Shown piece after piece: positions 17,013-54,600 of a stretch of DNA of 64,000 nt. The stretch comes from Paraspadella gotoi (Eukaryota > Animalia > Chaetognatha), in the NCBI GenBank assembly GCA_051294375.1, contig CM119265.1:11657818-11721817 (forward strand), given 5' to 3'. The notes beneath the pieces were generated by a model. The model saw only the letters and a program-made list of their open reading frames with translations, was not told the DNA's origin and did not search any database. The stretch's first letter is position 1. The number at the start of each line of letters is the position of its first letter. Made by a program: the position numbers and the translations under genes.

Positions 17013-20000
17013 TTGTAGAGAACAGTTTTATTTTTGTGACAAAACAACAATTTTTTTTATTTAACATTAGCAGACATGTTTCGACTCGTTGCGAGCCATA
17101 ATCGTTCAAGGGGGATTAATAGATTCTGGTAGAGCTTTAAAAGTTAGGTAAAGGTTATTAATACAACTTTTTAAATTTTTTTTGTTTTATTGATAAAAAT
17201 TTTTAAAAACTATAAAATTCAGCCAATAGTGATGATGATGATTTTTTAAAGTTTTTTCTATTTTTAACCAATTTATAGTCAAAATTTTTAAAAATTGTAG
17301 TACTAACTTTCATTTAACTTTCAAGCTTTATAGGAATCCGTTCTTAAAAATTAAAATTTAAAAAAAAAATTTTATCATTTGTTATATATTAATAAATATT
17401 TAAAAGCTTCAGTGCAACAACCCAATGAACTAATTCAAAAAGTTGCATTGAAAATCGATTTAGTAATAGAAAGAAAAAAAAGGAATTTTTTTGAGAGAAC
17501 TAAGTTATAAAAAGTGTTCAATTTTGGTAGAGCCAAACTTTGTCAATGGGGTGGGTCAGAAGTTTGATTGGGAACCTTTCCAAATGAAACTTCATGCATT
17601 TCTGAGACTTTCAATGGACCAAAATTTTCTAAAAGGCTAGAAGCATTAGTAATTAATTTTTTAATATTTATTTATAGATAGGAAATGTCAAAATTTTTTT
17701 TAAAAATTTGTATTTTTAAGAAAAAGGGTCATTCAATTCAACTTCAAAATAGGCTAAAATGGAGTACAAATTCAGAAAGCTGAGCTCCTGGCGATTCCGA
17801 AAATGTATTCACTTTAAGCATTTAATGCATTCTACCCCATTTTATATCGGTTTTAATTATAATATAAAATAAAAGAAACCTATCTGAAGAGTTGCAGGTT
17901 AAACGAAAAGGCCAATCCATCTGATATTTTTTTATGAATTTTTTATTACTGAATTAGAAAAATGTAATAGAGAGACATTTTTAAATTTCAACTTGTATCC
18001 TTGAAAATAGAAATGTTTTTAAACTTTAACCCTGAATTCTTTCTAACTGGAACCGCGTTTATCAAAATGTCTCTCTATTACATTTTTACAAATGTTTTTA
18101 AGATTGCTAATCAAATTTTTAATTCAATATTATTGCAGTCGTTTAGGCTGCAACTCTTCAAATTCAGTGTAGATTCATTGTAGCTCGAATTTCTTTACCA
18201 TCTATTTAACTGAAGATTTGTTCATGACTGGAAAACCAACAGAGTAATGAGATTAATTGTTTAATTCTCCCCTTCTAAATTATCCTATACCGTGTTTTAA
18301 CTTCTTACCTAGAATTTTTTAACAACCAGATTGAAAAACAAATCTTTAAAAAATGTGCTTACCCATTTAACGTAACAATTTTGTTATTTACCCATTTAAA
18401 AAAAAATGATTGAAAACAGAATGTTTACATATAAATAAGAACTTTTATAATATTTTGATAAGTGGGTCAAAATTGGGAAAAACCTTAAAAAATCATCATC
18501 ATCATCATTCGATGATTTTAGCAGTTTTTTAAATTTTGATGTTTTATTACTAAAAATTAGTAAAAAGTTGTAATTATATTTTTTGCTTAATTTTTTGAGC
18601 TCTATCAGAATCAATTAAAAAAACTAAAAATATCCAAAAAAAATTTTTGACATTGTATAGCAATATAATATTTACAAGGAAATTTCAATTGTTACAACGA
18701 TTTTTATTATTAATAATATAATAATATTAATTAGCGAATTACTCATGGTTCGGAACATTTTTGCAAAAAAATATTTTAATACAATAATTAATACCAATAA
18801 TGGATTAGTTTAATGCTGTTCCCATTAAAATTTGAATTTGGTCGGCTACCGCTAATTTTGGCCCGCCTTAATGCCCAGCTGGGTGGCTTAGGGATGGTCA
18901 AATCCACATCAATTTATACAATACAATGCTGGCCGTGAAAAACCACCTGAACAGCCAACATGCGAGTATCAAATGGACATGTGAAAAAGAGGTGAATGAA
19001 TCGATTCCAATGCTCGATGTGCTGATTCAGAGCAGAGAGAGCGGTTCATTGGAATTTACTGTATCGCAAACCGACCCATACCCGAGTCATTGGTGCGGGT
19101 GCTAGCAAAGCAGGGGATCTCCACCTCAGTGACGGCCCGCGGCTCTCTCCGTGAACAATTAGTGAAACTAAAGGACAAAATCCCCAGACCGAAAACTTCA
19201 GGAGCCGTCTATAGGGCGGCCTGTGCAGCAGCATATGTAGGCGAGACAGGCAAATCTTTCTCGGATCGGTTCCAGCAACATGTAAGAACTTACCGTGATG
19301 CCAGGGGACATTCGACATTAACTGGCCACCGGTTCAGAGACGACTCTCGTGCTGTCCCATGACCAAAACTGGTTCTCAAGAGGTATTAGAGAGGCGGTCT
19401 ACATCAAAGCTCTTGAGCCCTCTTTGAACCGTGATGGAGGATGATTCGATCTCCCTCCAAATTACGATTCCCTTATTAAATCAGTTGTGGAACGCCCTAC
19501 ACCACCACAGCCGCACAATGACTCCCCTGTCCTCACTCAACGGGCCAGGCGGAGACTTTCGGTTAACCGATGGGTACCTGATACCTTTAACTCTCCTGTA
19601 GCAACTCAGTCCCTCTCTCTGGGACCTGAGCGCCGCCCCAAACGACGGCTACAGGAGGAGGAGGAGGTCACTACCAACCCTGCAAGAGTGGCCACCCGCC
19701 CGCCTCACTGTCAGGTGAGAAGAGGGCAGTCGGCAGGCGTATCAGGTCTAAGGGATATCAGGGTAGTACTCGGTTTGTTTCCCAAGGGAACAATGCCTGA
19801 CCCGGCTCACATTATCCTCTTAGCCAATGACTCCAATGACCCGGCACCATCAGCAATACCTTTCCTTCATAAGACCGGGGGGGGGGCCAGCTCATTTTTA
19901 GCTCTTTCTTCATTCTGCAATTTATCTATTATCTCTCACTTATCTACCCCTAATACTCTCACTATCATACTTCAAATTTCATTTAACAAATTTATTTATT

Positions 20001-20406
20001 TCTACAATGTTAAGTCAAGTTTTCAATATATATCTTTCTTCTACATTGCTCAAATGTAATTGTCTATGAACTCTCTCTCTGTCTCACTCTCTCTTTGATC
20101 AAATATAACTTCTTTTTCACAACTTACTCAATCTGACCTAATCTCAAATCTGTCCTCACCTATAACCACTGTCCTTTATCAATTCTTTGTTGGAAACTTT
20201 AAACCTGACCTTTCTCTCTCTCTCTCCCTATTCTTTTCACTCTTATAATTTCAAAACTGTAACAGCGCTGATGATGGCTCGCAATAAGAGTCGAAACATG
20301 TCTGATAATGTTAAATAAAAAAATCGTTGTTTTGTCTGTCACACAAATAAAACTTTGTTTTCTCTACAATTCTAAATCGCAACGAAACAAAGGATTTACA
20401 CCATAG
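17013..20406 (+). mobile_element. Second, internally deleted PLE copy (RT thumb/GIY-YIG remnant ~18880-19500, 3' pLTR to 20406, short inverted pLTR 17013-17100), interrupted by nested MITEs
   Basis: Sequence closely related to 29720-31130 (KTSGAVYRAAC..YVGETGKSFSDRFQQH). 17013-17100 is the reverse complement of ~20275-20372. Flanking TA(A/G)CTAGATAAA at 17001-17012 and 20404-20415 is a candidate TSD. Confidence 0.8.
20264..20306 (+). ncRNA. Minimal hammerhead ribozyme in PLE 3' pLTR
   Basis: AGCG CTGATGA t GGCTC gcaataa GAGTC GAAA CATG TC TGAT; a truncated inverted copy lies at 17069-17099. Confidence 0.78.
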
Positions 20407-21494: not shown

Positions 21495-22834
21495 TACCAT
21501 CTTGGAAAATGAATAAGTCGCCAAACTCTCGATCATTTTTAAACACCTTCCTAACATAATCGAAAGAAAAAAATTATATTTCCAGAAAGCTTGGCGATTT
21601 TCGATCAAATGGAGCCGGTTTATGTTAGATTATGATTAAAATTGCCGTCAGGGCAGAAGAAAGAAAAGAAGGAGATAAAAAAAAATTTGCTTTCTTTTTG
21701 CGTTTTGGCGTATTTCAGATTTTAATAATTTTTTTCCTTAATTTTTTTGAAAATTTTACACTGTATTTTTTTATTATGCCTCAACGTTGACATTTTACAA
21801 GTGATCAACGTGCATCTATAATTGAATTGCACAAAGCGGGTATCAAGAATACTTCCATATCTAAGCAGCTAAGAGTGAATCTTCGCAGTGTGCAGCGGCT
21901 GGTCAAGTCTTACCGTGATGCTGGCAACACAAAAAGAAAGATAGGTTCCGAGAAGCGACGGGCCACAATCAAGGCTCAGGATAGACAACTGGAGAACTTG
22001 GCACTACAAAACCGATTCGATTCAACTGTGAGCCTTCAGAAAAAGTGGATGACGAAATCTTGAGTAAAGGTTTGCCGTAAAACTGTGAACCGTTTGGTGG
22101 AATGAGGGATTCGGGCGAGAAAACCACGAAGAAAGCCACTCAAAACTGCAGCAATGTGTCAAAAAAGATTATCTTTTGTAAAAAGTCATCAAGACTGGTC
22201 AGTTGCTCATTGGTCTCGAGTTGGGTTCAGCGATGAATCCTGGTTTCAACTAAAAGAAAATGGGAGGATTCAACACGTTCGACGTCGCGTCGGCGAAGCA
22301 TTGCATCCTAATTACATATTGCAGACGGTTAAGCAGCAACCGAAGGTCATGGTGTTCGGTGCAATCTCTTCCCGTGCCAAGTCAAAGTTAATCTTCATTT
22401 CGGGACGCGTTGATAGCGCCAAATACAGAAATTCTGGAGGAAGCGAAGATAAAGGAATTCGTCCGAGGTGGAGTTTTTATGGAAAACGCCCCTCCGCATC
22501 GAGCCAAGGAGACAAAAGAGTGGCATCGCCGAAATGGGGTTAAACTTCTACCTGACTGGCCAGGGAACTCTCCGGATCTCAATCCAATCGAAAATGTGTG
22601 GTCAGATGAAAAATCGACTGAGAAATGAACGTCAAACATCTCTGCAAGCCATGAAACAACTTATCAAAAAAGTTTGGGATAACCGCTCCTTAGAATACCT
22701 GCAGTCGCTCTATGAGTCAATGCCGAACAGAGGAGGTCACCCTACATATTGATAACCATTTTTTCTGTTATATTTAAATTTTAATATACAATTAACTTTA
22801 AAATTTGGCGACTTATTCATTTTCCAAGATGGTA
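21495..22834 (+). mobile_element. Tc1-family DNA transposon, full-length but inactivated
   Basis: ~30-bp TIR (TA)CCATCTTGGAAAATGAATAAGTCGCCAAA at both ends. The transposase at 21776-22752 has an HTH, FSDES, NAPPH and WPGNSPDLNPIENVW, with stops and frameshifts. Confidence 0.93.
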
Positions 22835-26900: not shown

Positions 26901-29117
26901 CAAAAACAAAAAAAAATATTTTTTTTTTAGAAAATTATACATGCAATTTAAATTATCCGCGCAATTGCCAGACAATATAAGCAGGTATTTGTACAGGCAG
27001 CAAGCTGATGTACATGTGACATTGCCTGCATTATAAGTTATTCTTCCCTTTTTACTAAAATGAATCCACGAAAATCTCGGATGTAAATTGTGGATTTTGT
27101 TATTGAGAAAAAAAATGGCATAATAAAATTTGAATTTCATCTTCAATCATTATATACTGAATATGTAAATTAGATTAAAGCATTTCTAATATACTAATTT
27201 GATATTATAATGAGTACTTATAATCTCATTTGCGTATTGCAGTAAATCATAATGAAGTGAAAATTCAAACAAAAAAATACTTAAATCCAAATGTAATAAG
27301 AAAATATCAAAGCTATTTCAAGATGAGAAGCCATATCTAAATTTTAACTTACTATGATCGCACACTTTTGTAAAACTTTATCATAATTCATAATATTTTT
27401 ATTTTAAAAAAACACGGTAAGTTCACAAACCTATAAAAGCGTAGTAGTTTCTTATATAAAAATAGCGTGACAGCCGACGACGACTCACAAAGAACGCAAA
27501 ACTGTCATATACTGTTTTTTGGTATTAATAAAAAAAAAAAATAACAAAAAAAACAAAGAAGCAAACCTAAAACATTATAGAGCCTGAACCGGCTTCCGTC
27601 CGTATGGCCATCGATAAAAATGTCTCTCATTACATTTTTCTAAATTTGCAAGTATAAAAAATTATAAATAATATCAGAGATAATTGCCTATCGTTTGACG
27701 CTGCAACTCTCTTCAGATAGGTTTCTTTTTATTATATTATAATTAAAACCGATATAAAATGGGAGGGTAGAATGCATGATATGCTTAAAGTGTTGAATAC
27801 ATTTTCGGCGAATCGCCAGGAGCTCAGCTTTTCTGAATTTGTACTCCATTTTAGCCTATTTTGAAGTTGAATTGAATGACCCTTTTTCTTACAGTAGTTA
27901 AATTACAAAAAATATTTTTAAGCTCGAAATTAAAAAATCGGTTATCTTTGTTTTTAGATTCTTGACCAAATTAATGAAAGAATTTTTTAAAAAACAATAA
28001 TATACTTTCATATTAGGGACCAACTCCAGAGATATATAAAATTTCGACTATTAGCAAAGTATTTTAGTTTGTTCTTGACTAAATATTTAAGCAATCATTT
28101 TCCAAAAAATTTATATTATACGTCCTTGATTTAATACATTAAAAAAATTACTTGTCTTTTTTACAATTATAAAATGTTTAAAAAATCTTAAAATTTTTTG
28201 ATGGATTCTGATAGAGCATAAAAAAGATTAAACAGGAAATTTAATTACACTTTAAAATTTTTTTTATGTTTTTCTAATGTGAACTATATAAAAAAGAATT
28301 ATACTTTCATGATGATTTTTTACGGTTTTTCTTATTTTTGACTTGCTTATCATGAAAATATTTAATAAAGAATTATACTTTGTTCAGACAACTTTTTATG
28401 AGTCATCTGAATCTGGTCTTAAAATTTAAAAATTATCCAAAAAATTTTTGGCCTTTCCTGTTTATAAATAAATATTAAAAAAATAATTATTTGGGTATAG
28501 AGCCACAGAAGAAATGTTTTATCCATTGAAAGTATACTTCAAAATGTATAAATTTTCGTTTGAGCATATAATCATTCTAAATTTTTGACTCACCCCATTG
28601 AGTGGGGCTACCCCTATTCATATATCAACTTTTTGCAAGGAATCCAAATCCGATCTTAAAATTATTATCTACTTATTACTATATATAAATGTAGCTCACT
28701 GGTGCCCACTAATGCTTGTGTATCAAGATGGATTCAGATTTTCAAAAACGCTCACACAAGTGATCACACACATATATATATATACTTTAATTTAAAACAC
28801 CTTTTATTCGATTTGAAATTCTCAACATGAGAGATCCCGATCGATTTCTATCTTGCTCCTAAATTATGCAAATTAGCTTACGATCGAATTTGTCAGATAA
28901 CGATGATGCTCTTTATTCGCGTAATTTTAAAAGTTTTATTATTGTAATATAATAAATAATTAAAAATTATAGTTTTTAGAATATATATTTTATAAATATA
29001 AATAGTTTATAGAATTTATACTATTGTGTTTTTTCCTTTCTGTTTCGTTGTGATTTTGATTTGAATTTAGAACAAAGTTTGAAGAGAGATTTAACAACGA
29101 TTTTTATTTCATAGTGA

Positions 29118-29159
29118 AACGGACATGTTTCGACTCACATACGAGTCTTCTTCAGCGCC
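29118..29159 (-). ncRNA. Minimal hammerhead ribozyme, intact core
   Basis: Reverse complement: GGCG CTGAAGA a GACTC gtatgt GAGTC GAAA CATG TC CGTT. Confidence 0.85.
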
Positions 29160-29439
29160 AATTCAATTTGTGAATTTGAAGAGAATTTTGTGCATAAAGA
29201 AGAGAGAGAGAGAGAGAGAGAGAGACAGAGCAAAGTTTCCAACACAGAGTTTGAGAGAAAGGATAGTGTTCAGTTTTTTATTAGGGACAGGTGAAGGTGA
29301 GGAAGAGATAGTTTGTGAAAAGAAATTGAAATGGAGAGAGAGAGAGAGAGAGAGAGACAGTGCCTTGAAATATATTACATTATGAAATGTACAACAATGT
29401 TAAAATTTGGTAAACTTTAATAATGAATAATATCAACAA

Positions 29440-30746
29440 TCCAATTGGATGACATCATGGCACTGCTACGGCTCGACCTGGAACTGGCGTACTTCAGGTT
29501 CGATGGACACGTACTACGCCCAGCCTGGTGGCTTAGGGATGGGCAAGTCGACATCAAGTCCTCTGGCAGATTTCTATATGGAGGACTATGAGGTGGAAGC
29601 TTTGTCCTCTTTTCGATCGTTGCATGGGGCAGAGTCAATCCTCTTCTGGTATCGGAAAGCAGACGATACCATCCTGCCGTGAGACGAGACCTCATTGAGG
29701 ATCTCCTGAATCACCTGAATGGGATTCATGTGAGTATTAAGTGGACATGTGAGAAAGAGGAGAATGGGTCAATTCCAATGCTCGATGTGCTTATACAGCG
29801 CAAAGAGGGCGGCTCATTGGAATTTTCAGTATATCGCAAACCGACGCACACAGACCAATACATTCCTTGACTCTCATGCGCCCTTATCTCACAAGCTTGC
29901 CACGGTCAGGTCCCTTACCAGGAGAGCAGCATTGATTCCGTCGACCCCCGAGCTTCAGGCGCCGAGCTTGAGCACATCAAAAGAGCCTTGGCGATCAATG
30001 GTTACCCATTGTGGGCCTTCGAGAGGGCTAGGTACCGGCCGTGTCTGGTTGAGGGCAGTGGCCACCTAGGGCTGCCCAAGTAGCCGCTGATGTAGTTTCT
30101 ACCTCCGTCCCCAGGAGGCAGAAAGGGAGCTTGCTGCTGAAGTGCCTACCGCCCCCACCACAGCGCAATTGGAAGAAGCAGAAGCGCCCAAAGAACGTGG
30201 GTCACTTGTCCCTCCCCTACCACCAGGGGATCACTGAGTCATTGGTGCGGGTGCTAGCAAAGCAGGGGATCTCCACCTCAGTGATGGCCCGCGGCTCTCT
30301 GCGTGAGCTATTGGTGAAACCGAAAGATAAAATCCCAGACCGAAAACATCAGGAGCCGTCTATTGGGCGGCCTGTGCAGGGGCGGGCAACCAAGCCTGCA
30401 CAGCAGCATACGTGGGCGAGACAGGAAAGTCTCTAACAGACCGATTCCAGCAGCATAAGAGACCCTATCGTGACGCTAGAGGCCACTATCTGCTATAGCC
30501 GAACACACGGCTAATACTGGCCATCTATTCAGAGAATCAGACTGTCTCGTGCTGTCCCATGACCCAAGCTGGTTTTCAAGAGGTATTAGAGAGGCAATTT
30601 ACATCAAAGCCCTCGAGCCCTCTTTGAACCGTGATGGAGGACGATTCGATCTCCCTCCAAGCTATGATTCGCTTATCAAAAGCGTGGTGGAGGCCCCTCT
30701 CCACCACGTCCGCACAATGATTCCCCATCTCCACTCAACGAGATAG
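29440..30746 (+). pseudogene. Frameshifted PLE reverse transcriptase + GIY-YIG endonuclease
   Basis: YYAQPGGLGMGKSTSSPLADFYME, WYRKADDT, HLNGIHVSIKWTCEKEENGSIPMLDVLI..VYRKPTHTDQY, LPYHQGITESL, GAVY..C..C..YVGETG, RGIREAIYI...LNRDGG; multiple frameshifts. Confidence 0.92.
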
Positions 30747-33700
30747 GCGGAGACCTTGCGCAGGCAATGGGCAGACGATACCTCTCCTTCAACTGCAGCA
30801 ACTCATTCCCTTCCTCTGTGGACTGAGCGCCGCCCAAAGCGACAGCTGCAGGAGGAAGGGGGGAGGCCACCACTCCTGTCACGAAAGTGGCAAGAATGGA
30901 CAGCCGCCCACCTCGCCAGCAGGCAAGAAGAGGGCAGTCGGCAGGCGTACCAGGCCAGAGAGACATCCGAGTAGCCTTTGGTTTCTTCCCGCAAGGAAGT
31001 CTTCCCAGCTCTGCACTAGTAGGCTCCACCAACCTGTCCTCTCAGCCAATGACACACCAATGACCCGACCTTATCAATCTAGCCTTTCATTTGTTCATAA
31101 CCAAGGGGCCAGCTCATTTTTGAGCTCTTTCTTATTACTTGAAATTTCCCTTTTCCTAATTACTTAGCTATCCTCACTAACAATAAATATTTCACATTTC
31201 TGAACTTCTATTTCATTTCACTAATTTTTACTGTAGCTAATTGTTGATATTATTCATTATTAAAGTTTACCAAATTTTAACATTGTTGTACATTTCATAA
31301 TGTAATATATTTCAAGGCACTGTCTCTTCTCTCTCTCTCTCTCTCCATTTCAATTTCTTTTCACAAACTATCTCTGTCCTCACCTTCACCTGTCCTAATA
31401 AAAAACTGAACACTATCCTTTCTCTCAAACTCTGTGTTGGAAACTTTGCTCTGTCTCTCTCTCTCTCTCTCTCTTTCTTTATGCACAAAATTCTCTTCAA
31501 ATTCACAAATTGAATTGGCGCTGAGAAGACCGTATGTGAGCGTCGCAACATCGGAAATAAAACTTTCTGTTTTACTTTATTGAAAATTAACTGTTATATC
31601 ACATCGTTTACTACATTTGTTTAAGCGTCACTATTATATAAAATGTCGTTGATCATCTCCTTCAAACTTTGTTCTAGAATTTATACTATATAAATAAGAC
31701 AAAATAGTATTTAAACGGAGCTTGAATGCTCCAAAATGAGGATTTTTGATAAAAAAACTTAACTATTTTGTTTGCTTAAATTCCTTATTACATATAATAT
31801 AATATAAATTGTATTATAAATTGTATAAATCATTCGTTTAAGTTACCATTATACGTGCTTTAATAAATAGGTAAATATGGAAAAACTTGATAATAAGATA
31901 AAAATAACCAATAAAAGTAAAATATCAAAAAAAAAATAAAGAAAATTAATATTATTAAAAATATAACTATTATAACTATTAAAATTATATTTTAAAAATT
32001 ATTGCAAAGAATTTAAATTGTTGAAAATTATTAATAAATATTTTTCTATAGCCAAATAGATATTTTTGAAGTAATTTTTAGTCAACTATTCTCAACAGAA
32101 AATTTTGGTTTTAATCATTTGGTTTTGTTCCGTAAGTAGCATTAAAAGAGAAATTTTTTTTCAGAAACAAAACAAAAACTTTCTCTTTTAAAACAGGAAA
32201 TTTTAAATTTTTAGAACACAAGCTTGGAAAGCCGGCAATTTTAGTGATTAGTCTAATCTTATTCCATATACTATTAATAACAGACTTTTACATAAAACTG
32301 ATAATCATAATATTTGAAAATATTTTTTCTCTTCAACGAAACAAAAATTAAATAAAATTCTAAAAGTTAAAAGCTAAAAACTGAAAGCTAAATGTCAATC
32401 ATTTGATAAATTCTCAGTATATACATATAGATAAGTGAAAAGGATTCATTCAATATCAGAATCAATGATTTAAGTATATTATGTTGGAATGAACAATGAA
32501 ATAAATTAATTTTTCAATCAACAAAATTGAAAAAGTGAGTAAACAAATTATGATTAAAAATAATATGATAATATGATAACATTTTAATTGTTAACAACAA
32601 CGATGAAGGCTAACAATTAGTCGGAAAATGTCCGTTTTTATGTAAAAACATTAAATCGTTATTGTTAACCATTAAAAAGTTATTATTTCGTCTCTAAATC
32701 AAACAACAAATGAAAAGAAATAATACAATAACTAAAAACTAAAAAAAAATCCGAGATAATTTTTTATAATTAAAAAGAAAATTGACTATGGATGCTCAAA
32801 CCCTCATTTATCCTGAAGTATTGGCCTATTAATAGTTATAAAAATGAAACTATAGTACATAGGAAAAATGGGTTTATAATATAATAATAGTTTAAGAAGA
32901 AGGGGATAAATTGTAATCAAATCATATCCGTTTAAAGCATTTTTGTTTTTGTATAAACATTGTCATTGTTAAAAAAAATTTCATCTTTTATTAAATATTA
33001 ATTATATTTATTGTTATTTATCATTGACTATATAAGATCATATTTTATATTAATTTCTCTTTAAATATATGTTCATACTGAATTTCAGTAAAGCAAAACA
33101 AAAAATAGTAATTAATTTCTAAAATGTTTTCCTATAAAAAAACAGAAAAAAACTATTAAAAATCACAACATGCAGCTACTAAAAACTCATAAAATTATTA
33201 ATCATTATGAAATTATTAATAAAACGTAGAAAATATTATTAATAATACAATTTATTTAAAAAAAACTAAACTTATCGTCAAATTTCACATATGAAAAATT
33301 CGCGAATATCCGCCAGGTTCACTAGTATCTTTTGTTCTTTTTGACCGGCTTGACCGGTCTTTAACATTAAAAAGATACGAAATGACGTATTCGATCTCGG
33401 GATCTCTTATGTTCGATGCATTAAAATTAAAAATTTTTATACGAAAATTATTTATTTATACGTCTGATTAAATGTGAGAACGTTTTTTATGAAACTCGAT
33501 GTCTGTATATTTGATGCAAAATGAAAAAAAAGATGCAAGTTGTACTTTTTTGTAATTATTTCTACTATAGTATTTATTTATTTAGCTGATTACGCTTAAT
33601 TATCGTAGGCAGATCCGACATTGTTTGCTTAAACTTGTTATTCTTTTCATTAATAATTTTAATCTTTTTAAATTGCATTTTATTTTTATTTCCTTTTATA

Positions 33701-38200: not shown

Positions 38201-41200
38201 TTTACAAGTGTTCCATTTTACCCCAATATAATTGTAGCTATGTAAAAAATAATTCTCTATTCGAAACCCCCCCCACATTAGCCTTTTGTCTCTCCAAAAG
38301 GCGAAACACCGCGCTGTGACCAGACATGTGAAACAAACAAAAGTCAAACGAAAAAAATATACTCCCGGCCTCAGCGACAGCAGAGCTGCATCAGGGCCCA
38401 GTCCCGACGCTGCATCACTCTGTCGAAGTGCTGCTGAGCCGGGTGACGCATCACTTCTTTTTTCGCTTATTTTAGCGCTTTTTTTCGATTATTATCGGGA
38501 CTTTCCTTCGATATTACCTTTTCATATCGAATTTTGAACTTTCACGCTCGTCTTTATGTCCTCTCGACGATCGTAAGAAATCGCGCGATAAACCTCGAGA
38601 AGGATCACGCGATCGCAGTTCGACGAAATCTTCGGTTTCCAAGGGTTTGAGGGACCCTGAGATTCACGTGGGCGCGACTGCGTCGCAAGATGCCTCGCGC
38701 CCCGGTCGGTGTTTTCTCTCCACCCCCCTCCTCCACTTTAGGCGCTGTCTTCTGTTACCTCGGTAACGGCGCCTCGGGCCGCGCGCACAGGGGCGAGCGC
38801 AATCGGGTGGAGGCCTGAAAGTATTTCGCTTTTTGAAGGACACCCTCGACGGGTTTCGCAAGGACATGCAGGATTCGCTTCGCCGGGAGATGGACGATTT
38901 CCGCCGGTGAGCGTTAATTTTGGGTTCTTTTATTCGAAGTCGTTTGCAAATTCTTTAATTTGCCCCTCCATCAAATTTTTCTCTTTTCTTTCTTTCGTTT
39001 TTATTTTTATATTTTGGTTTACACGCCGCATTTTTCTCGTTACTGAGGCTAATGTGGGGGGGGGGTTTCGAATAGAGAATCTGTAATTCTGAATGGAATT
39101 ATGATTCTTATCGAAACCCCCCCACATTCTCCCGCCGCCGCCCCTTTCGCCTCTGGGTGAGTGTGGTCGCGGGTGTGGTTCGGTTTCCATTTTTCTGTGT
39201 GTGTATAGTTTCAAATAGTTTCTTTTTTGCCGAATATTTGTGGATAGAGAAAAAAGGGGGGTTTCCTCAATTTGATATTTGATCAAATTCTCGTTTTTTG
39301 CTTACGTTCATGTGTGATTCTTATCGAACGGACGACTTCACTTCGCTTTTCCCTTCGCCGCTGGTCCTTGACAAGTCCTTCGCTTTCAGAGAGCAGTCCC
39401 GCTCACGGGCTCCTGCCTCGGCCTCTAGACGCGGGAGTCAGGGGAGTTGGCGAGAGGCTGGCGTCTCGCACAACCTCCTCAACCTCGCGCCTTCGTCGTT
39501 GGGTGGACCATACCTCGTCGGCGTCGTTTCTACTTCCGGATCACAACGGGTGTTTGATCCCGCATTTCGAAGCGGCTCTCTGCACCAGATATCCTGTCTG
39601 CCGTCAACACGTACGCACGATGCAGGCGCGTCGGGTCACGCCGCCCTTTTTGTCGCCGAGGATCTACCCCTTTTGTCAGAGGCCATCAAGGCGGGCTTTT
39701 CAGCGGGTCAGGTGGTGGAGCGCATGGCATCGCCCCTTCGCGACATTGCATCTTTCCAGGCATCTGCGTTTAACTCGGCGCTTCTGGAGTTCAACGTTCA
39801 GTTTTGTCGAAGGAGTCGATCGATCTGCGTGGGACGCTGCAAGACGCCACGCCCACCAAAAAGTTTATCTTCGATAATCTTTCGGATCAAGTTTCCTCAG
39901 CGGTCAACGCTGCCTTTTTCCGATCCACCTCACGCCCTCGCTTTGTTGATAACCGCCATCAGGTTTTCAAAGCGTCGAAGACCAGCTTCAAGCCGTGGAA
40001 GAGCGGCAAGAAGCCCTTTTTCTCTCAAGAGGTCGTTCGGAAGCTGGAAGAGTCATCGGGGATCTTCATCCTGGTCGCCCCTTTCTGGCCAGCCCGAGTG
40101 TTTCTCGTCGTGGCTTAACCTGAAGTTTCTGGAGGCTCAACGTCTTCCGGCCCCAGAGGATGCCGTCGTCGCCCTCAGCACAGGATCCCCGCCGCCGCAA
40201 GCCGATCGTCTCAAGCTGGTCGCTTGGCAGTTTTTCGGCGGGCGAACGACAGCGACGACCTCAGCGATTCAGCCTTCGACATCATCGCTGTCAGTTGGAG
40301 AGGCTCGACACGAGATCGTTACGCTCGAGCCTGGACCTCCTGCTCTTTCCTTCAATGTGAGGAAGCTCGAGGACTTGATGCGTCTCTGAAGGATGTTCTG
40401 GAGTACCTAGCCCATCTTGTTGGGTTGGGCTTATCGTACAGCTCAGTGAACCTTCATCGCTCGGCCTCGTCGTCACAGGGATCGTACTCGATGGGGGAGC
40501 ACCCCCTCGTTTGACGCCTTCGCAAGGGGACCTTCGAGTGGCGTCCTTGTCGGTTTTTTCCTCCGTGGGATGCGGCATCGGTTCTACGTGTTTTGGATGT
40601 CGCCCTCCCGCCATCTCCCGCTCTCGTTCTTCGGCGCTCTTTTTCTTTGGCGCTCGATTCGGCCAGGATGCCGTCGGAAATAGTCTCGCTCAAGTGTGAT
40701 TAAGCCCTTTTCTCGCTCGCTTCGGATCATGGGCGTTTTTGTTCCGTCCAAGCTTTCCAGGACAGATCGTGTCGGGCACTTGGGCCCGTACTTCAGGGTG
40801 GACGCCCTACCGGCGTCTTCGCGTTGCCCCATAGCGGCTCTGAGGGAGTGGCTTCGAGTCAACGAATGTTTAGTGCCGTCTCACGTTTTCTTCTCTGCGC
40901 CCCTTCGCCGCCCTTTACTCCGTTTTCGCCCCAACGTTTGATTCTCGAGGTGCTCTTTTTGGAGGCGGATGTCGGCGCTCCGCCAGGATCTTCGCGTGCC
41001 ATGGCGGTCTCAGAAGCCTTCGCCCGCAGCGTCGATCTCGGCGTCATTCTCAGGGCTGGAGACTGGTCTGGAGATCAGACTTTCCTTCCGGTTCTATTGC
41101 AGGGACGTCTCATGGGGCATTCCGTTTGGCGTTCTCGGGACTAGTGACGCGTCCCCCGGCTCAGCAGCACTTCGACAGAGTGATGCAGCGTCAGGACTGG

Positions 41201-45476: not shown

Positions 45477-47935
45477 TCAGCGAGGGACGTGGAGGACGAC
45501 GGTCCTCCGTAGCGGCGCGACGGCGGTCAAGTTGAGGCGGCTACACGTGCACACGGCAAGTGTTCGTACAGCAGTCAGACCTGAGGGCGCTCGGCACACG
45601 AACTCCATGCATTCCATTCTCCTTGGAAGATCTTCCTCTGGTCCAGCTATGAACGACTCCGGGTGGAAACCCGGCTGTAAACGGAGTCGACCGTCATAGT
45701 TCGGATGCAAAGTGGGCAGGAGCCAAGTCAGAACGGCGCTCTTTTCGCAATACTGGTCCTGAACGAAGCCGCGGATTTGGGCGTAGTAGACCTTGAAGAA
45801 AAAATTACATTAGTAGTAAGACATAGAAAAGAAAAGAGCAGGGAAAAACAAGATAAAATGAGGACCTGTTCGTCGTCGGCGTCTACCACTGAAACGATAT
45901 CGCCCTTTTGCCAAAACTGATGGCGAAAGTAAACCATCTCCTGCGTGACGATGGAGGCGACGCGCTTTGGACCGCGGTTCACTGATCCCCGCTGGAAACA
46001 AAAACTATGATAAATTGGAAATGCGGTGTTAATTTTTAAGCAACGTGCTTCAATTAATTGAAAAGTTATACTATCAGAAAACATCACTCACTCAATGCTC
46101 ATAACCTGTTTAAAGAAGAGGTTCCGCCTTCCGACCTTGGATCTACCGGCGTTTTTCCCGTTAACCTTTCTCTTCGTCAACGTCGGAGGCGCCGCGCTGG
46201 CGGACCGCGCCTCCACTCGAGCCTTTCGACTGTCTTCTTCCACAACGCCGGCCTTTAACGGCACCGGTTCGCTCGTGACTACGACACCGACGCCGCTCCG
46301 AAGCTTTTTGTCATCGAGGACCGAAGTGGCCTTTGACTTTCTCATCTCATCCTCCGTCGTCGTCGTCACAGCAACCGCTTTCGGTTCGGCTTTCGATCTT
46401 TTTTCGTCCGAAACAAGACCATCATCTCCGCCATCGCCTCCGTCGACGCCGCCTTCGACCTCCTTCAGCTTTCTCCCAGCCGCCACCCGTTTTCTCGATC
46501 CCGCCACGCCGATTCTTTCTTTCGACGCTGTCTCAGGCTTTTCCGGCGTCGACGCCTTTTTGACGACCCGCCGGCGGCGTTCTTTGCGCTTCCTCTTTAA
46601 CTGCATCTCTCTAATCTCCCGCTTCTTTCGCGAGGTCATGCTGTCGAGGAGCGACTTGGCGATCGCCGCTTGCGGAGATTTACGCTTATTCGGCGAACAT
46701 GGGATCGCCGTCGTTAGTTTGGATGAGGAAAAGACTTCCGCGTCCAACGCTGCCATAGATATTATCTTTGCGGACGCTGCATTAGAGATCTTCGGCCGAG
46801 TGAACCTTCTCTTTTTTGGGGTTCTCTTGACCCGGGGCTTGACGATCGCGACGCCCTCGCCGCCCTCGTCCGCCACCTTCGCCGACTCCCGATCTTTGCT
46901 GACCAACGACTTGGCGACTCGCTTAAATATGTTATCGACGACGTCGTCTTCTCCGAGGCGGTCCTCGTTGAGACTCTCCACGATCAACTCGAGGTTGTCT
47001 CTACGTTTGGGCGGAGGGGCGTTCTCTTCCGTAGTCGGAGACGCGTCATAGACTTCGTCGGAGCAGACGACGTTTATCTCCCAGTTCGAGACGGGATTTC
47101 CCGAATCGATCGAAGCCAATGTTTCGCCGTCGACTTTCATTAGGACGGATTCGGATTCGAAAGAGTCATCTTTGGCGGGGGAAGTCTTCGGCTCTCCTTC
47201 GTCGTCGGTCGAGGTACGTCGGTATTCGTCGTCGGTCAAGGTACCTCGGCATTTGTCAGAGTCCTGGACACCCTTTGCCGTCGAGATGAGTTCGGGATCC
47301 ACAGCGGTAGCAATCTCTTTCTTGTGAACAAGTGGACTGGCGGAGGTTGTGGAGGCGTCGATAGAACCGGTAGATGAAATCGAGAAAGAAGACGACCCCT
47401 CGGGGCCATAAACTAGCTCCATTGCAGAAAGAATGGGAGAGCCTGCAGAAAGGTAGGAGGTGGGAGGCAAGGCAGTAATGACAGTGTAATTGTCCTGCGT
47501 TGCGGTTTCATTTTCAGCGAGTGATGTAGTTCGATCCGGGTTTCGGCCATGAGGAGAAGAAACGAGCCCGACTGTTTGCCCTGCGAGAGAGTCTTTTGTG
47601 TCTTTTGTCTTTTGAGAAATAATGGAGGAAGCCATCGGAGTCGTTCGAGTCAAAGCGCTCGATGAAATCAGTACAGAGGATGCAGAAGCCGGCGGTCCGA
47701 GGGAGGCCGGCAACGGAGGACGATTCGGGAGAGCGCCGTTAGCAGCGGGCGACGGCGTTCGACTAGTGGCGCCACCGCCGCTTTTGTCAATTTTGTAGCA
47801 CTCACTGCACAGAATGTTTCCGCTCGCTTTGTGGCGTTTCCAAAATGGAGAAAAAGAAGAAAGGCAAAAGTGACAGATGGGAGATTCCACACGAACGGCG
47901 ACGTTGGGGGAAGGAGAAGCCGTCGGCTCGTTCAT
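45477..47935 (-). CDS. GATAD1: GATA zinc finger domain-containing protein 1 (exons 47935-46106, 45991-45866, 45791-45477)
   Basis: N-terminal CHFC-x19-CSEC finger (SSFSPFWKR..GNILC). The C-terminal block KGDIVSVVD..EQ/VYYAQIRGFVQDQYCEKSAVLTWLLPT...FHPESFIAGPEEDLPRRMECMEFVCRAP closely matches my recollection of the conserved GATAD1 C-terminal domain. Confidence 0.93.
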
Positions 47936-48131
47936 CTTCAATTTAGTTCTAGTTTTTCTTGTATGTGATACTGATACTAGTCTTTATGACACGTGATCTC
48001 AGCATATTTTAGCTATGTATAAAAAGAATAGATGTTTAAAAGAATATAAAAACAAAAATAAAAACAAGATTATAAAAACAAAGTTTTCAAAAAAATATAC
48101 ATCGCAATTATAACGAAGGGGAGAACGAAAT

Positions 48132-51100
48132 TCAGCGCCTCATTTTTGAGGAAAGCTTCGGTTCGGCATAATTCTTGTTGCTTCGGGCGCGGCGGCTTCC
48201 TCTTCCAGCCTCGTCCGGCGAAGATTCGACGACAACGACGTCGGACTCGCTCCCGCTGTTGGCAGTGACGTACCTGGAAGACGTCCGCTTTTTCGTGGTG
48301 GCCGCAGAGAGAAAGTCTTCGGCACCGGAGGAAACGGATTTGTTGCGCACTAAGGTCAAGACGGGTTCTGAAGCGGGTGTTGGATTGGTCATCGGTTTGG
48401 GCGCATGGAGGTGCGTGGCTGAAAAACATGTCAAGTCTTAGTCAGTGATTGCGTCACAACTTTTAGTCTATTTCAGTTAACAAAGGCCTAATATGTACAA
48501 ACATACAAAAAAAAAAAAAAAAAACCAGAAAAACATACCAACTGTTGAGAGAAAAACGTCGGAATCATTCAGATCATCCTTACACTCGCCTTTTGCCTCC
48601 GTCTTTTTCTTAGGCTTTATCCTCTTCGTCGTTTTCGAATCGATCGTGAAGGTGACGTCTTCGTCACTCGGTTTTCCTTTGGTCTTTTTCTCCTTCGTCT
48701 CGAGCGCGTCGTCCGAATCGTCGGTGTCTTGGTAGACGACGGACTTTTTGTGACGGCGTTTTCTTGGAGACTCGGCCTTTCTAAACTCGTCGGTGGCGAG
48801 TGAAAGAAAATCTTCCTCCTGAGAGTCGGCGTCTTTGGTCGCTCCGCGCGAGGGCAAGCGGACCGGGGCTTCCTTTGCCGCCTTGGAAATCTCAGGGTCG
48901 CGATGAGAATTTGATGTCTGCAGCGGATGCTTCTGAGACTGTTGCTGTTGTTTCTTTTCTTTAAACTCTTGCAACGAAGGAACGTGCGAGTTATCGAGGA
49001 AAGAAAGATCTTCGCCAAAGCGAGCTGTGGCGTCAAAGGCGGCGTATTCGCGTGGTTTGGCTTTGGCTTTGGCGTCTGAAGAAAAAAAAATTCCATTACT
49101 TTCTACTTACTTTCTCTCATTTATTGTCCAGAGTAACTCACCGGCAGAGGCCCGGATTTCATCCTCAGCCGCCTTGCTCATTTTTCGCTTCTTGGATCTC
49201 CCCGTCGTCTTAGATTTTTGTCCGACGACCATCTTCTTGTAAATCTCTATGTCGACTTCCCCAGGTTTCGTCGATCCCGTTTTCGCCGTCGCCTTTATCT
49301 TTCCACCCTCTTTCCTCTTGGGTTCAGTCTTGGCGGGAGCAGGTTTTTGCGACGGCGCGGATTCGGGCATCGTGCTCTCGCTCCTGTCTAACTTTTTCTC
49401 CGCAGAGATCTCGGAAGATCTGCTCGAGCGGGCGAAAAAAGCCTTTGAGCCGGAGGCGGTGGCGACAGGGGGCGAAATTTCGTCTTGAGTCTGACGAGCC
49501 AGCGGCGAATCGACACGATGAAAAGCGGGATCGATGTGTAGCGCCGCATTAGAGAGCGACCGGTTACCCGAACTTGTCTTGACTGGCTCCTCCTCGGGCG
49601 GAGTGGGGTTGAGACGGATAAAACTGCTGCGACGCTGATCCGTAAGGGTTGGAACCAAAAATGCGACGTCAGACTGTGACGGAGCCATTTTCCCGATCGG
49701 CGACTCTGTTCCGGGAGCCGACTCTGTCAGTTCCATGTCGTCGGGTTCGGTATTGGTCGCATCGGCAGCCGCGACGCCATCGCCAAGATCAAAGAAGAGG
49801 TCGATAGCCTTAAAAAAAAAATATCTCAGGACGACGTTCAGTTTTAAAATTAGACGATCGGGGCTCAACTTACCTTCTGCGCCTCGTTTTTATCGTCCAA
49901 TTCGAAATCGGACAACACCGGGGATTCGAGAGCCTTGTTCAACAAATCGGGCGAGGAAGTTTGCAAGGATGGAGTCTCGAGATCAGTCATGGATCTGGTT
50001 GACTTACTAATTAAAAAAAAAAAGATCGTTGATCAGTTATTGTTTATTTGTTATGAAACAAACGAAGAAACCAGGTGACTGGTGACTTACTTATGAGGAG
50101 TCCCAGATTCTTCGCTTTGAAGCTGCATCACGCGCGGAGATCGAGCGAAAACTCCGGATCCGAGACCGGAAGGAGACAGTCTGCGGTTCGGGGGGTTGAT
50201 GACGAAAGGATTATTAAAGTTCTCCCCCCTCCCCTCAAAAAAATATTTATCTAACATAATAGACTCGCGTCGAGAGTTTCTGCTGCCGCTTCGGGAGCGC
50301 CGCGCGCCATCTTCATTGCCTCCGCTCTCTCGTTTTTGCTGCTGCTGCTGCAGCGGCTGGGATAAGATGGATGAACGGTTCGGCACCGAAGAGCTTTGCC
50401 TGCGAAAAACTACGGAAGAGCACCGTTTCGTTTCTTCTTCCTCCATGACCTTGAGTAAAGAGACGAATTTTTAAAAAAAATTATGATTAACTTGCTCATT
50501 CACATCTACCGATTTACCTGCGACAACTTGGGCGGGGCGACGGAGCCTTCTGCCACCGCCAAACGATCAGCCTCAGAGGTGGCGGCCATTCCAGTTTCGA
50601 CGCTCTCTTCCCAAGGGAGCTTGAGACGGCGCTGAGTTGGAGGATCCGTCTTGTCTTTGATGATTTGCTGAAGGCGAGAGACGTCGTGGTGCAGCGTCGA
50701 TGCGTTTAAGGGATGCAAGATCGATGGCATCGCTGACGAAGAGAGAAAATCAACGTCATCCTCGAGGGCGAGCTGAACGGAGAAAAAAAGGAGGCGAGGG
50801 AAATAGTAAGTATATTGTATAAGACTAGTTTTCTGGGTTTTCGATGTCCTACCATGATGGAAAAAAAATTGTCGCGGTTTGGAAAAGTCAGTTAATTTCA
50901 TTGTCAAATATATTTTTTGGCCGGTAAATATATTTTAATATGTAATATGACCTCCTTAGGACTGAATAAAAAGATTATTTCTCAATAGCATAAAATTATT
51001 AATACTTTTAATACTTCCAAGAGGTTGTCTTGTGGCGGTATATTCAGACCGCCTATTTTTGATCAAGAAGACTATCAGATTTAGGGTAAAAAATGGTCCT

Positions 51101-51643
51101 TGTTACATAATGTGATGATATATTGTCTTTCATTTTAACAATTTTTTTTTTAACCTGTCTGATATTTTGTTCTAATAATACATCCAGAGTAGGGTGAAAT
51201 AAACGTTTGAAATCAAAATTCAGCAGTTACATCTTGAAAACTATCATATTAGTGAATACTAATCTGTAATTATTTTTTTTTTACAAATAGAGTAGCCCAA
51301 TCAGCTTATTTTGTATATAGTACTACCTTTATATAATGTCAAAATTTTCAAAATTTTTTTTTTTAAATTTTTAGAACAGATTCAGATTCCTCGTTAAAAG
51401 TTGATAATAGAAAATATAAATCTTTTTTAAAAATTATGTTATTAAATAGATAAAATTTATAAAAAAATATATTTTTAAACTAGAAATTAAAAATTGGCGT
51501 CTTTACATTTTTGACCAACTTAATGAAAGAATTTTTAAAAAAGAATTATACTTTCTTATATTAACTTTTTGCAAGGAATCTAAATCCGATCTTAAAATTT
51601 AAAAATTTGCATTTTGAAATTTTAGTTATTATATACTTATATA

Positions 51644-51681
<38 letters not shown>

Positions 51682-54600
51682 CCTACAGATGCCCACTAAT
51701 ATATAAAATTAAAAAATAAATTTACTAAAGTATTTTTATTGGTTTTTATTTTTATGTTTTATTTGCTAAATTTTAATTTCCTAAAGTTTAATCATTTTCA
51801 CATCACTCTAATCCAAAGGTAAATAAAAAGTATAACTTTGCTCATAGAAAGGTTACCCAGAGCATTATAACTTCTATTGATACTTTACAATATAAAAAGA
51901 ATATTCTGGAACATCTACAGCATTAATAAATTTTTAATTATTATTATTATTTTATGATTATTTTTTTGACATATGAATTAAGAATTATCCCTGAATCTAT
52001 CCTAATGGAGATGATGCAATAACTATTTGACATAAAATAAGAGAAATAATAACGGTTTAATTCAAAAAATAATAAAAAAGAACCGGTAATTAATATAAAT
52101 AAAAAGTGTAAATATGAAAAAGTTTAAAAAAAGAAATAATTTTTTTAGACAACTCATTTTCTTTTGCATGGAACTTTCCAAACTTTCTCGATATGCAAGT
52201 TATTTTTCGATTCTCACATTGTGATTAAACTTTCTTTCGTTGTGTTTTGAGTTGAGATTAAAGACGAAGTCTTGTTACATCTATTTGTTATCTATATGTT
52301 ACATTTATTTTATGGTACAGACAAGTTTCGGCTTTCATTCAAGCCTTCATCAGTGCTTTGACAATTCACAATTTTCATGTTTTCCAAATTGACTTTGAGA
52401 GAGAGAGAGAGAGAAAAGAAATGGTCAACAAAGATGTGAGACAGGACAGTGGTGAAATGACTCTCTCTCTCTATTTCTCTCTCACTCTCTCGCAAAGTCA
52501 ATTTGGAAAACATGAAAATTGTGAATTGTCAAAGCACTGATGAAGGCTTGAATGAAAGCCGAAACTTGTCTGTACCATAAAATAAAATCGTTGATGTAAC
52601 AAGACTTCGTCTTTAATGATTCTCACATTAAAATTCCGAAAAATAGCTGGAAAGTAACCGCGACAATTTTTTTTTTCCATCATGGTACCTGCAAATTGAG
52701 TTGTGCATCTTGCAGTTTTTCGAGGAATTGTCCCAACATTTCTTTGTGATCTGATGTAAGCTTGGCCGCGTTTCCTATCAAGTCGTTCAATTTAACCACG
52801 CGATCGCAATTGTCTCCAAAAAAAGAAACCCAAGGTTCGAAGTCGGCCTGAGAAATAAAAAACAAAATGTAGTAATACTTTACTTTAGTTTTTTAAATCA
52901 GTACTTGAAGCTTGGAGAAATTCTCGTTGACGAACGTGACGCTGCAAAGAAGTTTGGTCAACATTTCATTGCTCAAGATCATCGCGACGTCCTTCAGAGC
53001 TCCGTTGTGAGAAGACAAGGCCTTTTCCACGCGCTTCTTGACCAAAACACGAACCTCGTCGTCTTTGTGACCTTGAAAAAGAATAACGAATTGATGCGAT
53101 GTGTAGGACTAAGCTCTGACGAAAAAAGCCAATATAGAATGATGGCAATATTGCTATTGTTAAGTTTCCAAAAAAATCCGACCATAGATATAGAAAATAT
53201 TAACAAAAAACTTCGGAAAATCCACCACTTCTTTGGAAGATTTTCGCCATATTCTATGGCATAGAAGATTTTTCCCGAATCTGACTCCCGGTTGAAAACT
53301 CTTAGAATTCCGATCGTTAGCTCCTCTTTTACTTTTACTTTAAATAAAAATTTCACCAAAATGGACTAATTCACTTTACCATGATCGTATCATATTAAAA
53401 TAACCAAATAAAATATAAAGAAAAATTTTGAGAGCCCTTCAGCAAGAGGATTCCTGAATTTGACGTCATTTGTTGAACAGGAACATACCTCAGTCATGTT
53501 TATATCGTTTTCAAAGAAAAAAATCCCTTTAATTTCTATATAAAATCAGAGATAGATAATTTTCTGATATCAAAATATTGATGGTTTGACAAGAGAGAAA
53601 AAATGCGAGCTCTTCAGATTAGATATGTCGCTCTGCGCTTAAAAAAAAATCCGAAAGAACGAACGCGGTTTCTGATAATTTTGTTTCCTTGCAATTTTTA
53701 CACCAGTAAGCGCAGTAAATATTACAAAACCAATGGATGATTTCTGAAACTGCAGTGTTGGGCTATCCAACGCCGCCCGGAACAAAGAAAATCCATAAAG
53801 GTTCTTGACTAAAAAATACTGAAAATAAACACGACGCTTAGTCTGAATTCGTTTTAAAATTTTTTTATTTTGCGGTATTTACTGTATAAGTCAAATATAC
53901 AGCGGTCATGCACTGATTCCGATTCTGTTGGGTTTAGCCTAACTCTTCAAGAACATAAAACAAAAATAAATTGACGTCATAGTAAGAAATAATAGCAATT
54001 AATCAATTTTTTTTCTCAAAATTTGGTTATCATTTTTGTTCTTCCTTACGTTTTTTGCCAACATGCCCTTAAAAATTATAAAATAAAGATTAGCTAATGA
54101 AACTACAATGTCTTAGGTACATTTTGTGCCGGCAACACAAAGAAAATTCATTGATTTTATAGTATCAATATGGAGCCTCTGAAATAACTCATTTTCTCTT
54201 TGCAATTTACCCCTCTCTCGCTCTAGCTCTCGTATTGCAATAAAAAAATCAAAACAACATATTAGCTTCTTGAACCCCTAACTCAGCTACAAGCTCGCAT
54301 ACTATACGGCCTTGCGAATCTTATACCGAATGGTATGAGAAGATCTGTAGTGTTTTTTTATAAAAAAAAAGTGTGATTATATTAAATTATACCTCAGATG
54401 GCCCATGATTGCCAAAGGTTTTCCCAATTGCACCTGAAAGACTAAACAAAAACTTAGCAAATGATAGATAATACAGTCGTTTAGCCCTATGTCAGCTCGT
54501 TTTAAATCACCGGAACAAAAGTTTGAAACTCCCTAAATTTCATATTCAAAGTCATACTCTTTTTCAACCGGTTCCTACTATGGAATTTTTTTATAATTTT

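What the first reader, a model, noticed from the sequence alone, without database searches (positions are those of the whole stretch)
52221..52617. 397-bp non-coding palindrome with a hammerhead ribozyme on each strand and its own 12-bp TSD
Seen: near-perfect inverted arms, each with an identical intact hammerhead core, a short spacer of PLE 3'UTR, a CAACGAAAGAAAG tail on one side only, and a perfect GATTCTCACATT duplication, indicating a discrete and probably recent insertion. Established: PLE pseudo-LTRs carry minimal hammerheads, and 5'-truncated PLEs often have an inverted pLTR. Inference: this is either an extreme truncation product or a self-propagating non-autonomous family. Its RNA would be a rod-like hairpin with a self-cleaving motif in either polarity, an architecture that recalls viroid-like RNAs and differs from direct-repeat retrozymes. 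It lies in a shugoshin intron, so the pre-mRNA contains a sense hammerhead that its own antisense arm could sequester.
Basis: partly seen in the sequence, partly recalled or inferred. Interest (0 to 1): 0.82.

Follow-up and report, generated by a model that had tools for sequence, protein, structure and literature searches.

The report
One-off Penelope palindrome, not viroid-like
This 397-base mirror-image insert in a shugoshin intron is two short stubs of a common jumping gene (a Penelope-like retrotransposon) joined head to head; its central joint is likely private to this one site, so it is an ordinary truncated insertion and probably not a self-copying, viroid-like ribozyme RNA.

Summary
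In detail: 12-bp TSD, inverted arms with a 94-bp perfect core, one minimal hammerhead motif per strand, a 36-nt one-sided tail, inside an intron of a shugoshin gene. The 'self-propagating family / viroid-like' reading is not supported. In sequencing-run contigs the spacer is abundant (summed depth 16,686 next to the joint in run X1), but only one contig of depth 150 continues across the joint, and none does in three other runs; the other copies run on into the intact pLTR. The window holds a longer sister insertion with the same anatomy (inverted pLTR, tail, 15-bp TSD) around RT and GIY-YIG fragments. Inverted pLTR plus tail plus TSD, and hammerhead pairs 100-700 bp apart on opposite strands, are published for Penelope-like elements. 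The hammerhead's helix III has lost the palindrome that its sisters keep, and in the pre-mRNA its core is predicted to be fully paired with the other arm. Likely origin: both cut target strands primed reverse transcription at the element's two start sites; fold-back is the rival. This scan has noted the architecture before (262 findings, at least 37 genomes).

The parts
52209..52220 (+). left copy of the 12-bp target-site duplication
   Evidence: flank-joining contigs of host-repeat copies
52221..52256 (-). 36-nt PLE 'tail' with the CAACGAAA motif, on this arm only
   Evidence: same motif downstream of sister hammerheads; 30-40 bp tail in PMC8557442
52257..52459 (-). longer 5'-truncated pLTR copy (left arm); family contigs continue beyond 52459 into intact pLTR sequence
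52320..52353 (-). minimal type-I hammerhead motif, sense in the shugoshin pre-mRNA; predicted cut after the C at 52320
52416..52459 (-). unpaired centre: the part of the pLTR present in the left arm only; abundant in the family
52460..52617 (+). shorter 5'-truncated pLTR copy (right arm), begins at or just before the CT tract, ends at the tail start
52537..52570 (+). minimal type-I hammerhead motif, antisense to the host gene; predicted cut after the C at 52570
52618..52629 (+). right copy of the 12-bp target-site duplication
50773..52688 (-). host intron (GT-AG) of the shugoshin gene; nearly filled by a repeat with ~30-bp terminal inverted repeats into which the palindrome inserted
29010..31689 (+). 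comparator, not part of the finding: 2.65-kb 5'-truncated PLE of a sister family with inverted pLTR, one-sided tail, 15-bp TSD and broken RT + GIY-YIG coding sequence

Best explanation
The element is a single, heavily truncated insertion of an abundant endonuclease-positive Penelope-like retrotransposon: two pLTR stubs joined head to head, with a joint that is likely unique to this site, and likely made when both cut strands of the target primed reverse transcription. Shown: the anatomy, the TSD, kinship of the arms with hammerhead-bearing pLTRs, the abundance of the family and the rarity of the joint in contigs. Inferred: a GIY-YIG nuclease cut the two strands 12 nt apart, leaving two 3' ends; the top strand (ending ATT) primed cDNA from the distal start site (tail end, about 239 nt copied), the bottom strand primed from the proximal start site (tail start, about 158 nt copied), and the two cDNA ends were joined, so the 36-nt tail is the gap between the two start sites. 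The two hammerheads are passengers of the pLTR. In the shugoshin pre-mRNA the antisense arm is made first and is predicted to pair with the whole sense hammerhead, so cleavage is unlikely. The one-off PLE stub reading has about 0.88; within it, two-ended priming about 0.6 and fold-back about 0.3.
For: Joint rare, spacer abundant: X1 summed depth 16,686 at 52457-58 falls to 150.4 (one contig, 0 differences) past 52460; X2 2,976 to 0, X5 838 to 0, X9 251 to 0; 6, 4, 1 and 1 contigs leave at 52459 into a shared pLTR continuation. Single-locus contigs in X1 have depths of about 115-180, the neighbouring exon 295. Sister element 29010-31689 shows the same plan with 15-bp TSD, arms 96.5% alike over 319 nt and RT/GIY-YIG remnants. 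In both elements the tail-less arm stops 14 and 19 nt before CAACGAAA and the tailed arm stops 22 and 26 nt after its start, at ...CAC(A)/AT, as expected from two fixed RT start sites; Frangieh 2024 (PMC11167929) showed two start sites bounding the tail, cutting of both strands and an ATT preference in vitro. Pen2a_Av has inverted pLTR, 31-bp tail, 9-bp TSD (PMC3846280). Dual min-HHRs 100-700 bp apart on opposite strands were reported as probable truncated PLEs (PMC4209133). Predicted pairing probability 1.0 for all 34 core positions with the antisense arm.
Against: No genome assembly was held, so copies could not be counted directly. Contig depth is not a copy number by the tool's own warning, the one joint contig has only 11 letters past the joint (short of the tool's 31-letter rule for bridging), a filter can drop records, and X1 may be the source sample. 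The test covers this joint only; a small subfamily of a few copies, or copies present in other individuals, is not excluded. No intact parent with this exact pLTR was recovered, so the link to RT rests on a sister family about 59% alike. The paired-end argument rests on 2 elements. Nothing here separates two-ended priming from fold-back decisively.
Confidence: 0.85

Rival explanations
1. Same element class, different step: one cDNA folded back on itself through a short match and copied itself (self-priming), giving the second arm.
For: Arkhipova 2013 favours self-priming for head-to-head PLE junctions (discussion passage). The joint reads TG-AC, which matches the family's GTTGAC just upstream of the CT tract, so a 2-nt TG overlap is possible. 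Both arms share alleles that are in the minority among family contigs (C at 52576, where 84% of X1 depth shows A).
Against: No palindrome at the joint, a 44-nt unpaired centre, and different CT tracts in the two arms; a tract like the right arm's interrupted one occurs in other family contigs (2 contigs of X9), which hints at a second template. Fold-back does not explain why the short arm stops at the same place relative to the tail in two sister families.
Confidence: 0.28
2. A self-propagating non-autonomous palindromic family: the whole hairpin is transcribed, processed by its hammerheads and reinserted as a unit by a PLE protein.
For: Discrete boundaries, clean TSD and intact core residues. 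pLTRs alone can mobilise unrelated sequence in trans (PMC3846280), and non-autonomous PLEs exist (MRC1).
Against: The joint is carried by one low-depth contig in 1 of 4 runs, while the adjacent spacer is about 55-110 times single-locus depth in X1. No second copy in the window. The second short inverted element at about 12870-13345 has a different centre.
Confidence: 0.06
3. A viroid-like or retrozyme-like RNA replicon with a working ribozyme in each polarity.
For: Rod-like fold and one hammerhead motif per strand.
Against: The rod is simply the DNA palindrome. Each polarity has one hammerhead, so no monomer can be released; the core is predicted to be fully paired to its own antisense copy; helix III cannot form the usual dimer (duplex ACUUGU +0.3 against ACAUGU -4.6 kcal/mol); single min-HHRs showed no cleavage in vitro. 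No contig of the spliced-RNA-bearing run X9 crosses the joint.
Confidence: 0.02

Closest known systems
EN+ Penelope-like element insertions with inverted pLTR, one-sided tail and TSD (Adineta vaga Pen2a/Pen2, PMC3846280, passages read; general scheme in PMC8557442 Fig. 2 legend, passages read)
   Same: head-to-head inverted pLTR, 30-40-nt tail on one end, 8-15-bp TSD, 5' truncation, hammerhead in the pLTR
   Different: no ORF sequence or direct pLTR pair left: both arms are shorter than one pLTR
Dual min-HHRs on opposite strands in Schistosoma mansoni (Cercyon-related; Cervera and De la Pena 2014, PMC4209133, parts 1-2 of 4 read)
   Same: two minimal hammerheads on opposite strands within 100-700 bp (here the cores lie about 185 bp apart); extra base between A9 and G10.1; G10.1-C11.1 pair; short helix I
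   Different: helix III loop here is non-palindromic (UU); that paper gives no TSD, tail or junction analysis in the parts read
Poseidon of Anolis carolinensis, PAc (Frangieh et al. 2024, PMC11167929, parts 1-2 of 4 read)
   Same: two RT start sites bounding an AC-rich tail, cutting of both strands, ATT preference, fit the two arm ends and the TSD ends here
   Different: that work did not show head-to-head products in the parts read; the link is my inference
Non-LTR retrozymes of animals (bioRxiv 10.64898/2026.07.22.740005, part 1 of 5 read)
   Same: non-coding, PLE-derived, type-I hammerhead
   Different: retrozymes are head-to-tail tandems with at least two hammerheads in one polarity; this is head-to-head with one per polarity and a private joint

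Membership tests
EN+ Penelope-like element insertion | pLTR carrying a minimal type-I hammerhead | tested here: met
   9 motifs from the window align; 92% of cells pair, 4 of 10 pairs show two-sided changes, slid controls 21-44% (the structure was drawn from these sequences, so controls lean in its favour)
EN+ Penelope-like element insertion | inverted 5'-truncated copy with 30-40-nt tail on one end | tested here: met
   36-nt tail on the left arm only
EN+ Penelope-like element insertion | target-site duplication | tested here: met
   12 bp; flank-joining contigs of host-repeat copies
EN+ Penelope-like element insertion | parent ORF with RT followed by GIY-YIG | tested here: inconclusive
   shown for a sister family in the window; no parent with this exact pLTR recovered
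Penelope/Poseidon clade | RT phylogeny; no Zn-finger linker before the endonuclease | tested here: inconclusive
   sister fragments match RT-GIY-YIG proteins with a short linker; no tree built; frames broken
Non-autonomous palindromic family | same inversion joint at many loci | tested here: not met
   joint depth 150 of 16,686 in X1, 0 in X2, X5, X9
Non-LTR retrozyme | two or more hammerheads in head-to-tail tandem in one polarity | tested here: not met
   one per strand, head to head
Viroid-like RNA | circular RNA replicating through both polarities | not testable with these tools
   only contigs were available; no raw RNA reads
Active hammerhead ribozyme | self-cleavage at the GUC | not testable with these tools
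   core residues present; helix III dimer not predicted; core sequestered in the pre-mRNA fold

The most novel reading that the evidence does not exclude
The insert is a fossil of two-ended priming from two different RNA templates: each strand of a 12-nt staggered cut primed at one of the element's two start sites, so inverted pLTRs and the one-sided tail are one and the same event. The matching arm ends in two sister families and the mismatched CT tracts would be genomic evidence against the published self-priming model. A family of many copies that has fixed a non-palindromic helix III would also suggest its hammerhead works without the usual RNA dimer, for example with help from the element's protein.
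Probability: 0.3. Interest if true: 0.5.

Novelty: new member of a known kind. Interest (0 to 1): 0.2.

Why it matters
As an element it is ordinary. Its modest value is as one data point on an open question, how PLE inverted repeats form; this scan's earlier, unreviewed notes from genomes with many copies address that question with more power. A secondary point is that a long hairpin in a shugoshin intron would be a substrate for RNA editing or small-RNA pathways, which is untested here.

Tried and rejected
Own genome: none held. Rfam: 0 hits at gathering in the whole window; at E up to 10 only generic hairpin (miRNA, snoRNA) models below their thresholds, no hammerhead family. Sequencing runs: no RNA holder listed; X9 is a guess, although one of its contigs joins exons. 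One search returned no depth over the microsatellite centre, so the joint was read. Metagenome scans for the joint and for the hammerhead: 0 matches each. Word-based protein searches with PLE fragments: 0 hits of 245 and 947 candidates; Pfam did not recognise the broken fragments directly. The shugoshin motif was first sent in the wrong frame and found in the right frame; the N-terminal coiled-coil exon gave no Shugoshin_N hit and only weak Atlas leads. Paper searches: 'Penelope palindromic non-autonomous hammerhead inverted' 0 papers; 'Penelope twin priming inverted palindrom' 1 review on human TEs, listing only; 'Penelope inverted pLTR' 3 listed. An early idea that the right arm lost the spacer by deletion between two CATTTC words was dropped after one search showed the true family continuation. 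Polymorphism: in X1 the joint (150) and flank (159) contigs have about half the exon's depth (295), and an empty-site-like contig (143) was listed in X1 only; it differs from the window flank and may be a paralogue, so this is a hint only. No TSD of 6 nt or more was found for the 13-kb element.

Full report
Observation. The insert spans 52221-52617 and is flanked by GATTCTCACATT at 52209-52220 and 52618-52629; this 12-mer occurs only twice in the window. The arms share a 94-bp perfect block and a 25-bp perfect outer block, separated by a segment of 22 nt in the left arm against 6 nt in the right, and they differ in the CT tract. The RNA folds as one rod, -232.7 kcal/mol, with 0 of 100 shuffles as stable. 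Each arm has the core CTGATGA-A-GGCTT-loop-AAGCC-GAAAC-TT-GTC, at +52537 and -52353. A 36-nt extension with CAACGAAA lies outside the left arm only. The host gene has a Shugoshin_C motif (E 3e-9). A contig of run X9 joins the exon at 52689 to the exon ending at 50772, which places the insert in a minus-strand GT-AG intron, 50773-52688. That this intron and the motif exon belong to one gene is inferred from the run of minus-strand frames between them.

What the arms are. A relaxed scan found 9 motif hits in the window, 8 of them hammerhead-like, and further degraded copies were read by eye; most are followed at a similar distance by the same CAACGAAA tail motif. The strict motif occurs 6 times against 0-1 in 30 simulated sequences. 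Nine aligned cores keep 92% of cells paired with two-sided changes in 4 of 10 pairs; this structure was drawn from the same sequences, so the controls lean towards it. The motif has the features listed for metazoan PLE min-HHRs in PMC4209133 (parts 1-2 read): extra base after A9, G10.1-C11.1, short helix I. [quoted passage not shown] A related fragment at 19063-19332 found 331 proteins at E up to 0.001; of 10 scanned, 6 carry RVT_1 and 3 of these also GIY-YIG at E up to 0.001, some below the curated cut-offs, and one such protein aligns to 29433-30352. So this genome has endonuclease-positive PLEs with this pLTR design. The finding's left arm is 53-66% alike to the 8 sister pLTR pieces; its own parent was not recovered.

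Family or one-off. No assembly was held, so I used contigs of 4 of the 9 listed runs. Over the hammerhead, summed depth in X1 is about 150,000 against about 115-180 for single-locus contigs and 295 for the neighbouring exon, so the family is large. Across 52413-52470, X1 depth is 16,686 just left of the joint and 150.4 right of it, all from one contig with no differences; X2, X5 and X9 drop from 2,976, 838 and 251 to 0. Contigs that leave at 52459 (6, 4, 1 and 1 in the four runs) continue into a common sequence that resembles the upstream pLTR of sisters. The joint is therefore at about one dose while its neighbour sequence is at about 55-110 doses. Limits: summed contig depth is not a copy number, the joint contig has only 11 letters past the joint, records can be filtered out, and X1 may be the source sample. 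A high-copy joint would still be expected to give a deep contig, and none was seen. The flanks are themselves repetitive, and contigs of other host copies join the left flank to the right flank without the insert, which supports the TSD. A second short inverted element at about 12870-13345 belongs to another family and has another centre, so the shape arises repeatedly.

Mechanism. Frangieh et al. 2024 (parts 1-2 read) found that a Poseidon protein cuts both target strands, prefers ATT, and starts reverse transcription at two sites that bound the tail. Here the left TSD copy ends in ATT and abuts the tail end, and the right arm ends at the tail start. In the finding and in the 29-kb sister the tail-less arm stops 14 and 19 nt before CAACGAAA and the tailed arm 22 and 26 nt after its start. 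I infer that each 3' end of a 12-nt staggered cut primed one cDNA and the two were joined head to head. The wording 'twin-primed' and the lead to PMC3846280 came from earlier unreviewed notes of this scan. The rival is fold-back self-priming, which Arkhipova et al. 2013 favour (passages read). For it: a possible 2-nt TG overlap at the joint and minority alleles shared by both arms. Against it: no palindrome at the centre, different CT tracts, a right-arm-like interrupted tract in 2 other contigs of X9, and the matching arm ends. Mutation after insertion could also explain the arm differences.

Ribozyme. Helix III is ACTTGT here and ACATGT in 8 of 8 aligned sisters. The self-duplex that supports the dimer form is predicted at +0.3 against -4.6 kcal/mol. 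One search lists no alternative letter at that position among contigs at least 85% alike, which suggests the variant is common to the family, though the tool warns that no row does not prove sameness. Single min-HHRs showed no cleavage in vitro and dimers little, and the Anolis ribozyme needed protein. In the pre-mRNA the antisense arm is transcribed first and all 34 core positions are predicted paired to it with probability 1.0. Cleavage of shugoshin pre-mRNA is therefore unlikely; this is a prediction, not a measurement.

Comparison and novelty. Inverted pLTR, one-sided 30-40-bp tail and TSD are described for PLEs, and PMC4209133 already reports dual min-HHRs 100-700 bp apart on opposite strands as probable truncated PLEs. 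It fails the retrozyme definition of tandem hammerheads in one polarity (part 1 of 5 read). Two searches found no paper on twin priming or palindromic non-autonomous families in PLEs, but the library lacks most subscription papers and I did not read supplements. The scan's own index holds 262 findings with these words in at least 37 genomes and no look-alike of this sequence. Verdict: a real, ordinary, one-off PLE stub; interest 0.2.

Noticed in passing
window 29010-31689: 5'-truncated PLE with tailed inverted pLTR, 15-bp TSD and broken RT + GIY-YIG; the 3' pLTR's hammerhead is damaged and followed by about 90 nt of other sequence before the normal end
   Followed up: yes
window 12870-13345: second, older short head-to-head PLE element with a hammerhead on each strand (one with U3 in place of C3), from another family; arms much diverged; no TSD found
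   Followed up: partly
window 50850-52687: repeat with ~30-bp terminal inverted repeats and flanking TA fills almost the whole shugoshin intron; its right-hand TA overlaps the splice donor; high contig depth at its ends; Tc1/mariner-type MITE is my recalled label
   Followed up: partly
window 2515, 7420, 17080, 20268, 26470, 55410: further hammerhead-bearing pLTR relics of several families, most with the CAACGAAA tail; 18900-20400 keeps RT/GIY-YIG remnants about 70% alike to 30236-31480
   Followed up: partly
window 39250-41150: reading frames that look like a DIRS-type retrotransposon (label recalled from motifs; no Pfam hit for 39283-40386)
   Followed up: no
window 22106-22543: Tc1/Tc3-type transposase fragment (HTH_Tnp_Tc3_2, E 5e-5, below cut-off)
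   Followed up: no
window 46088-47983 (minus strand): 631-aa open frame with a weak GATA zinc-finger match (E 0.016), starting just downstream of the shugoshin motif exon
   Followed up: no
window 51330-51635: AT-rich imperfect palindrome, 149-nt arms, 75% complementary, in the same intron
   Followed up: no
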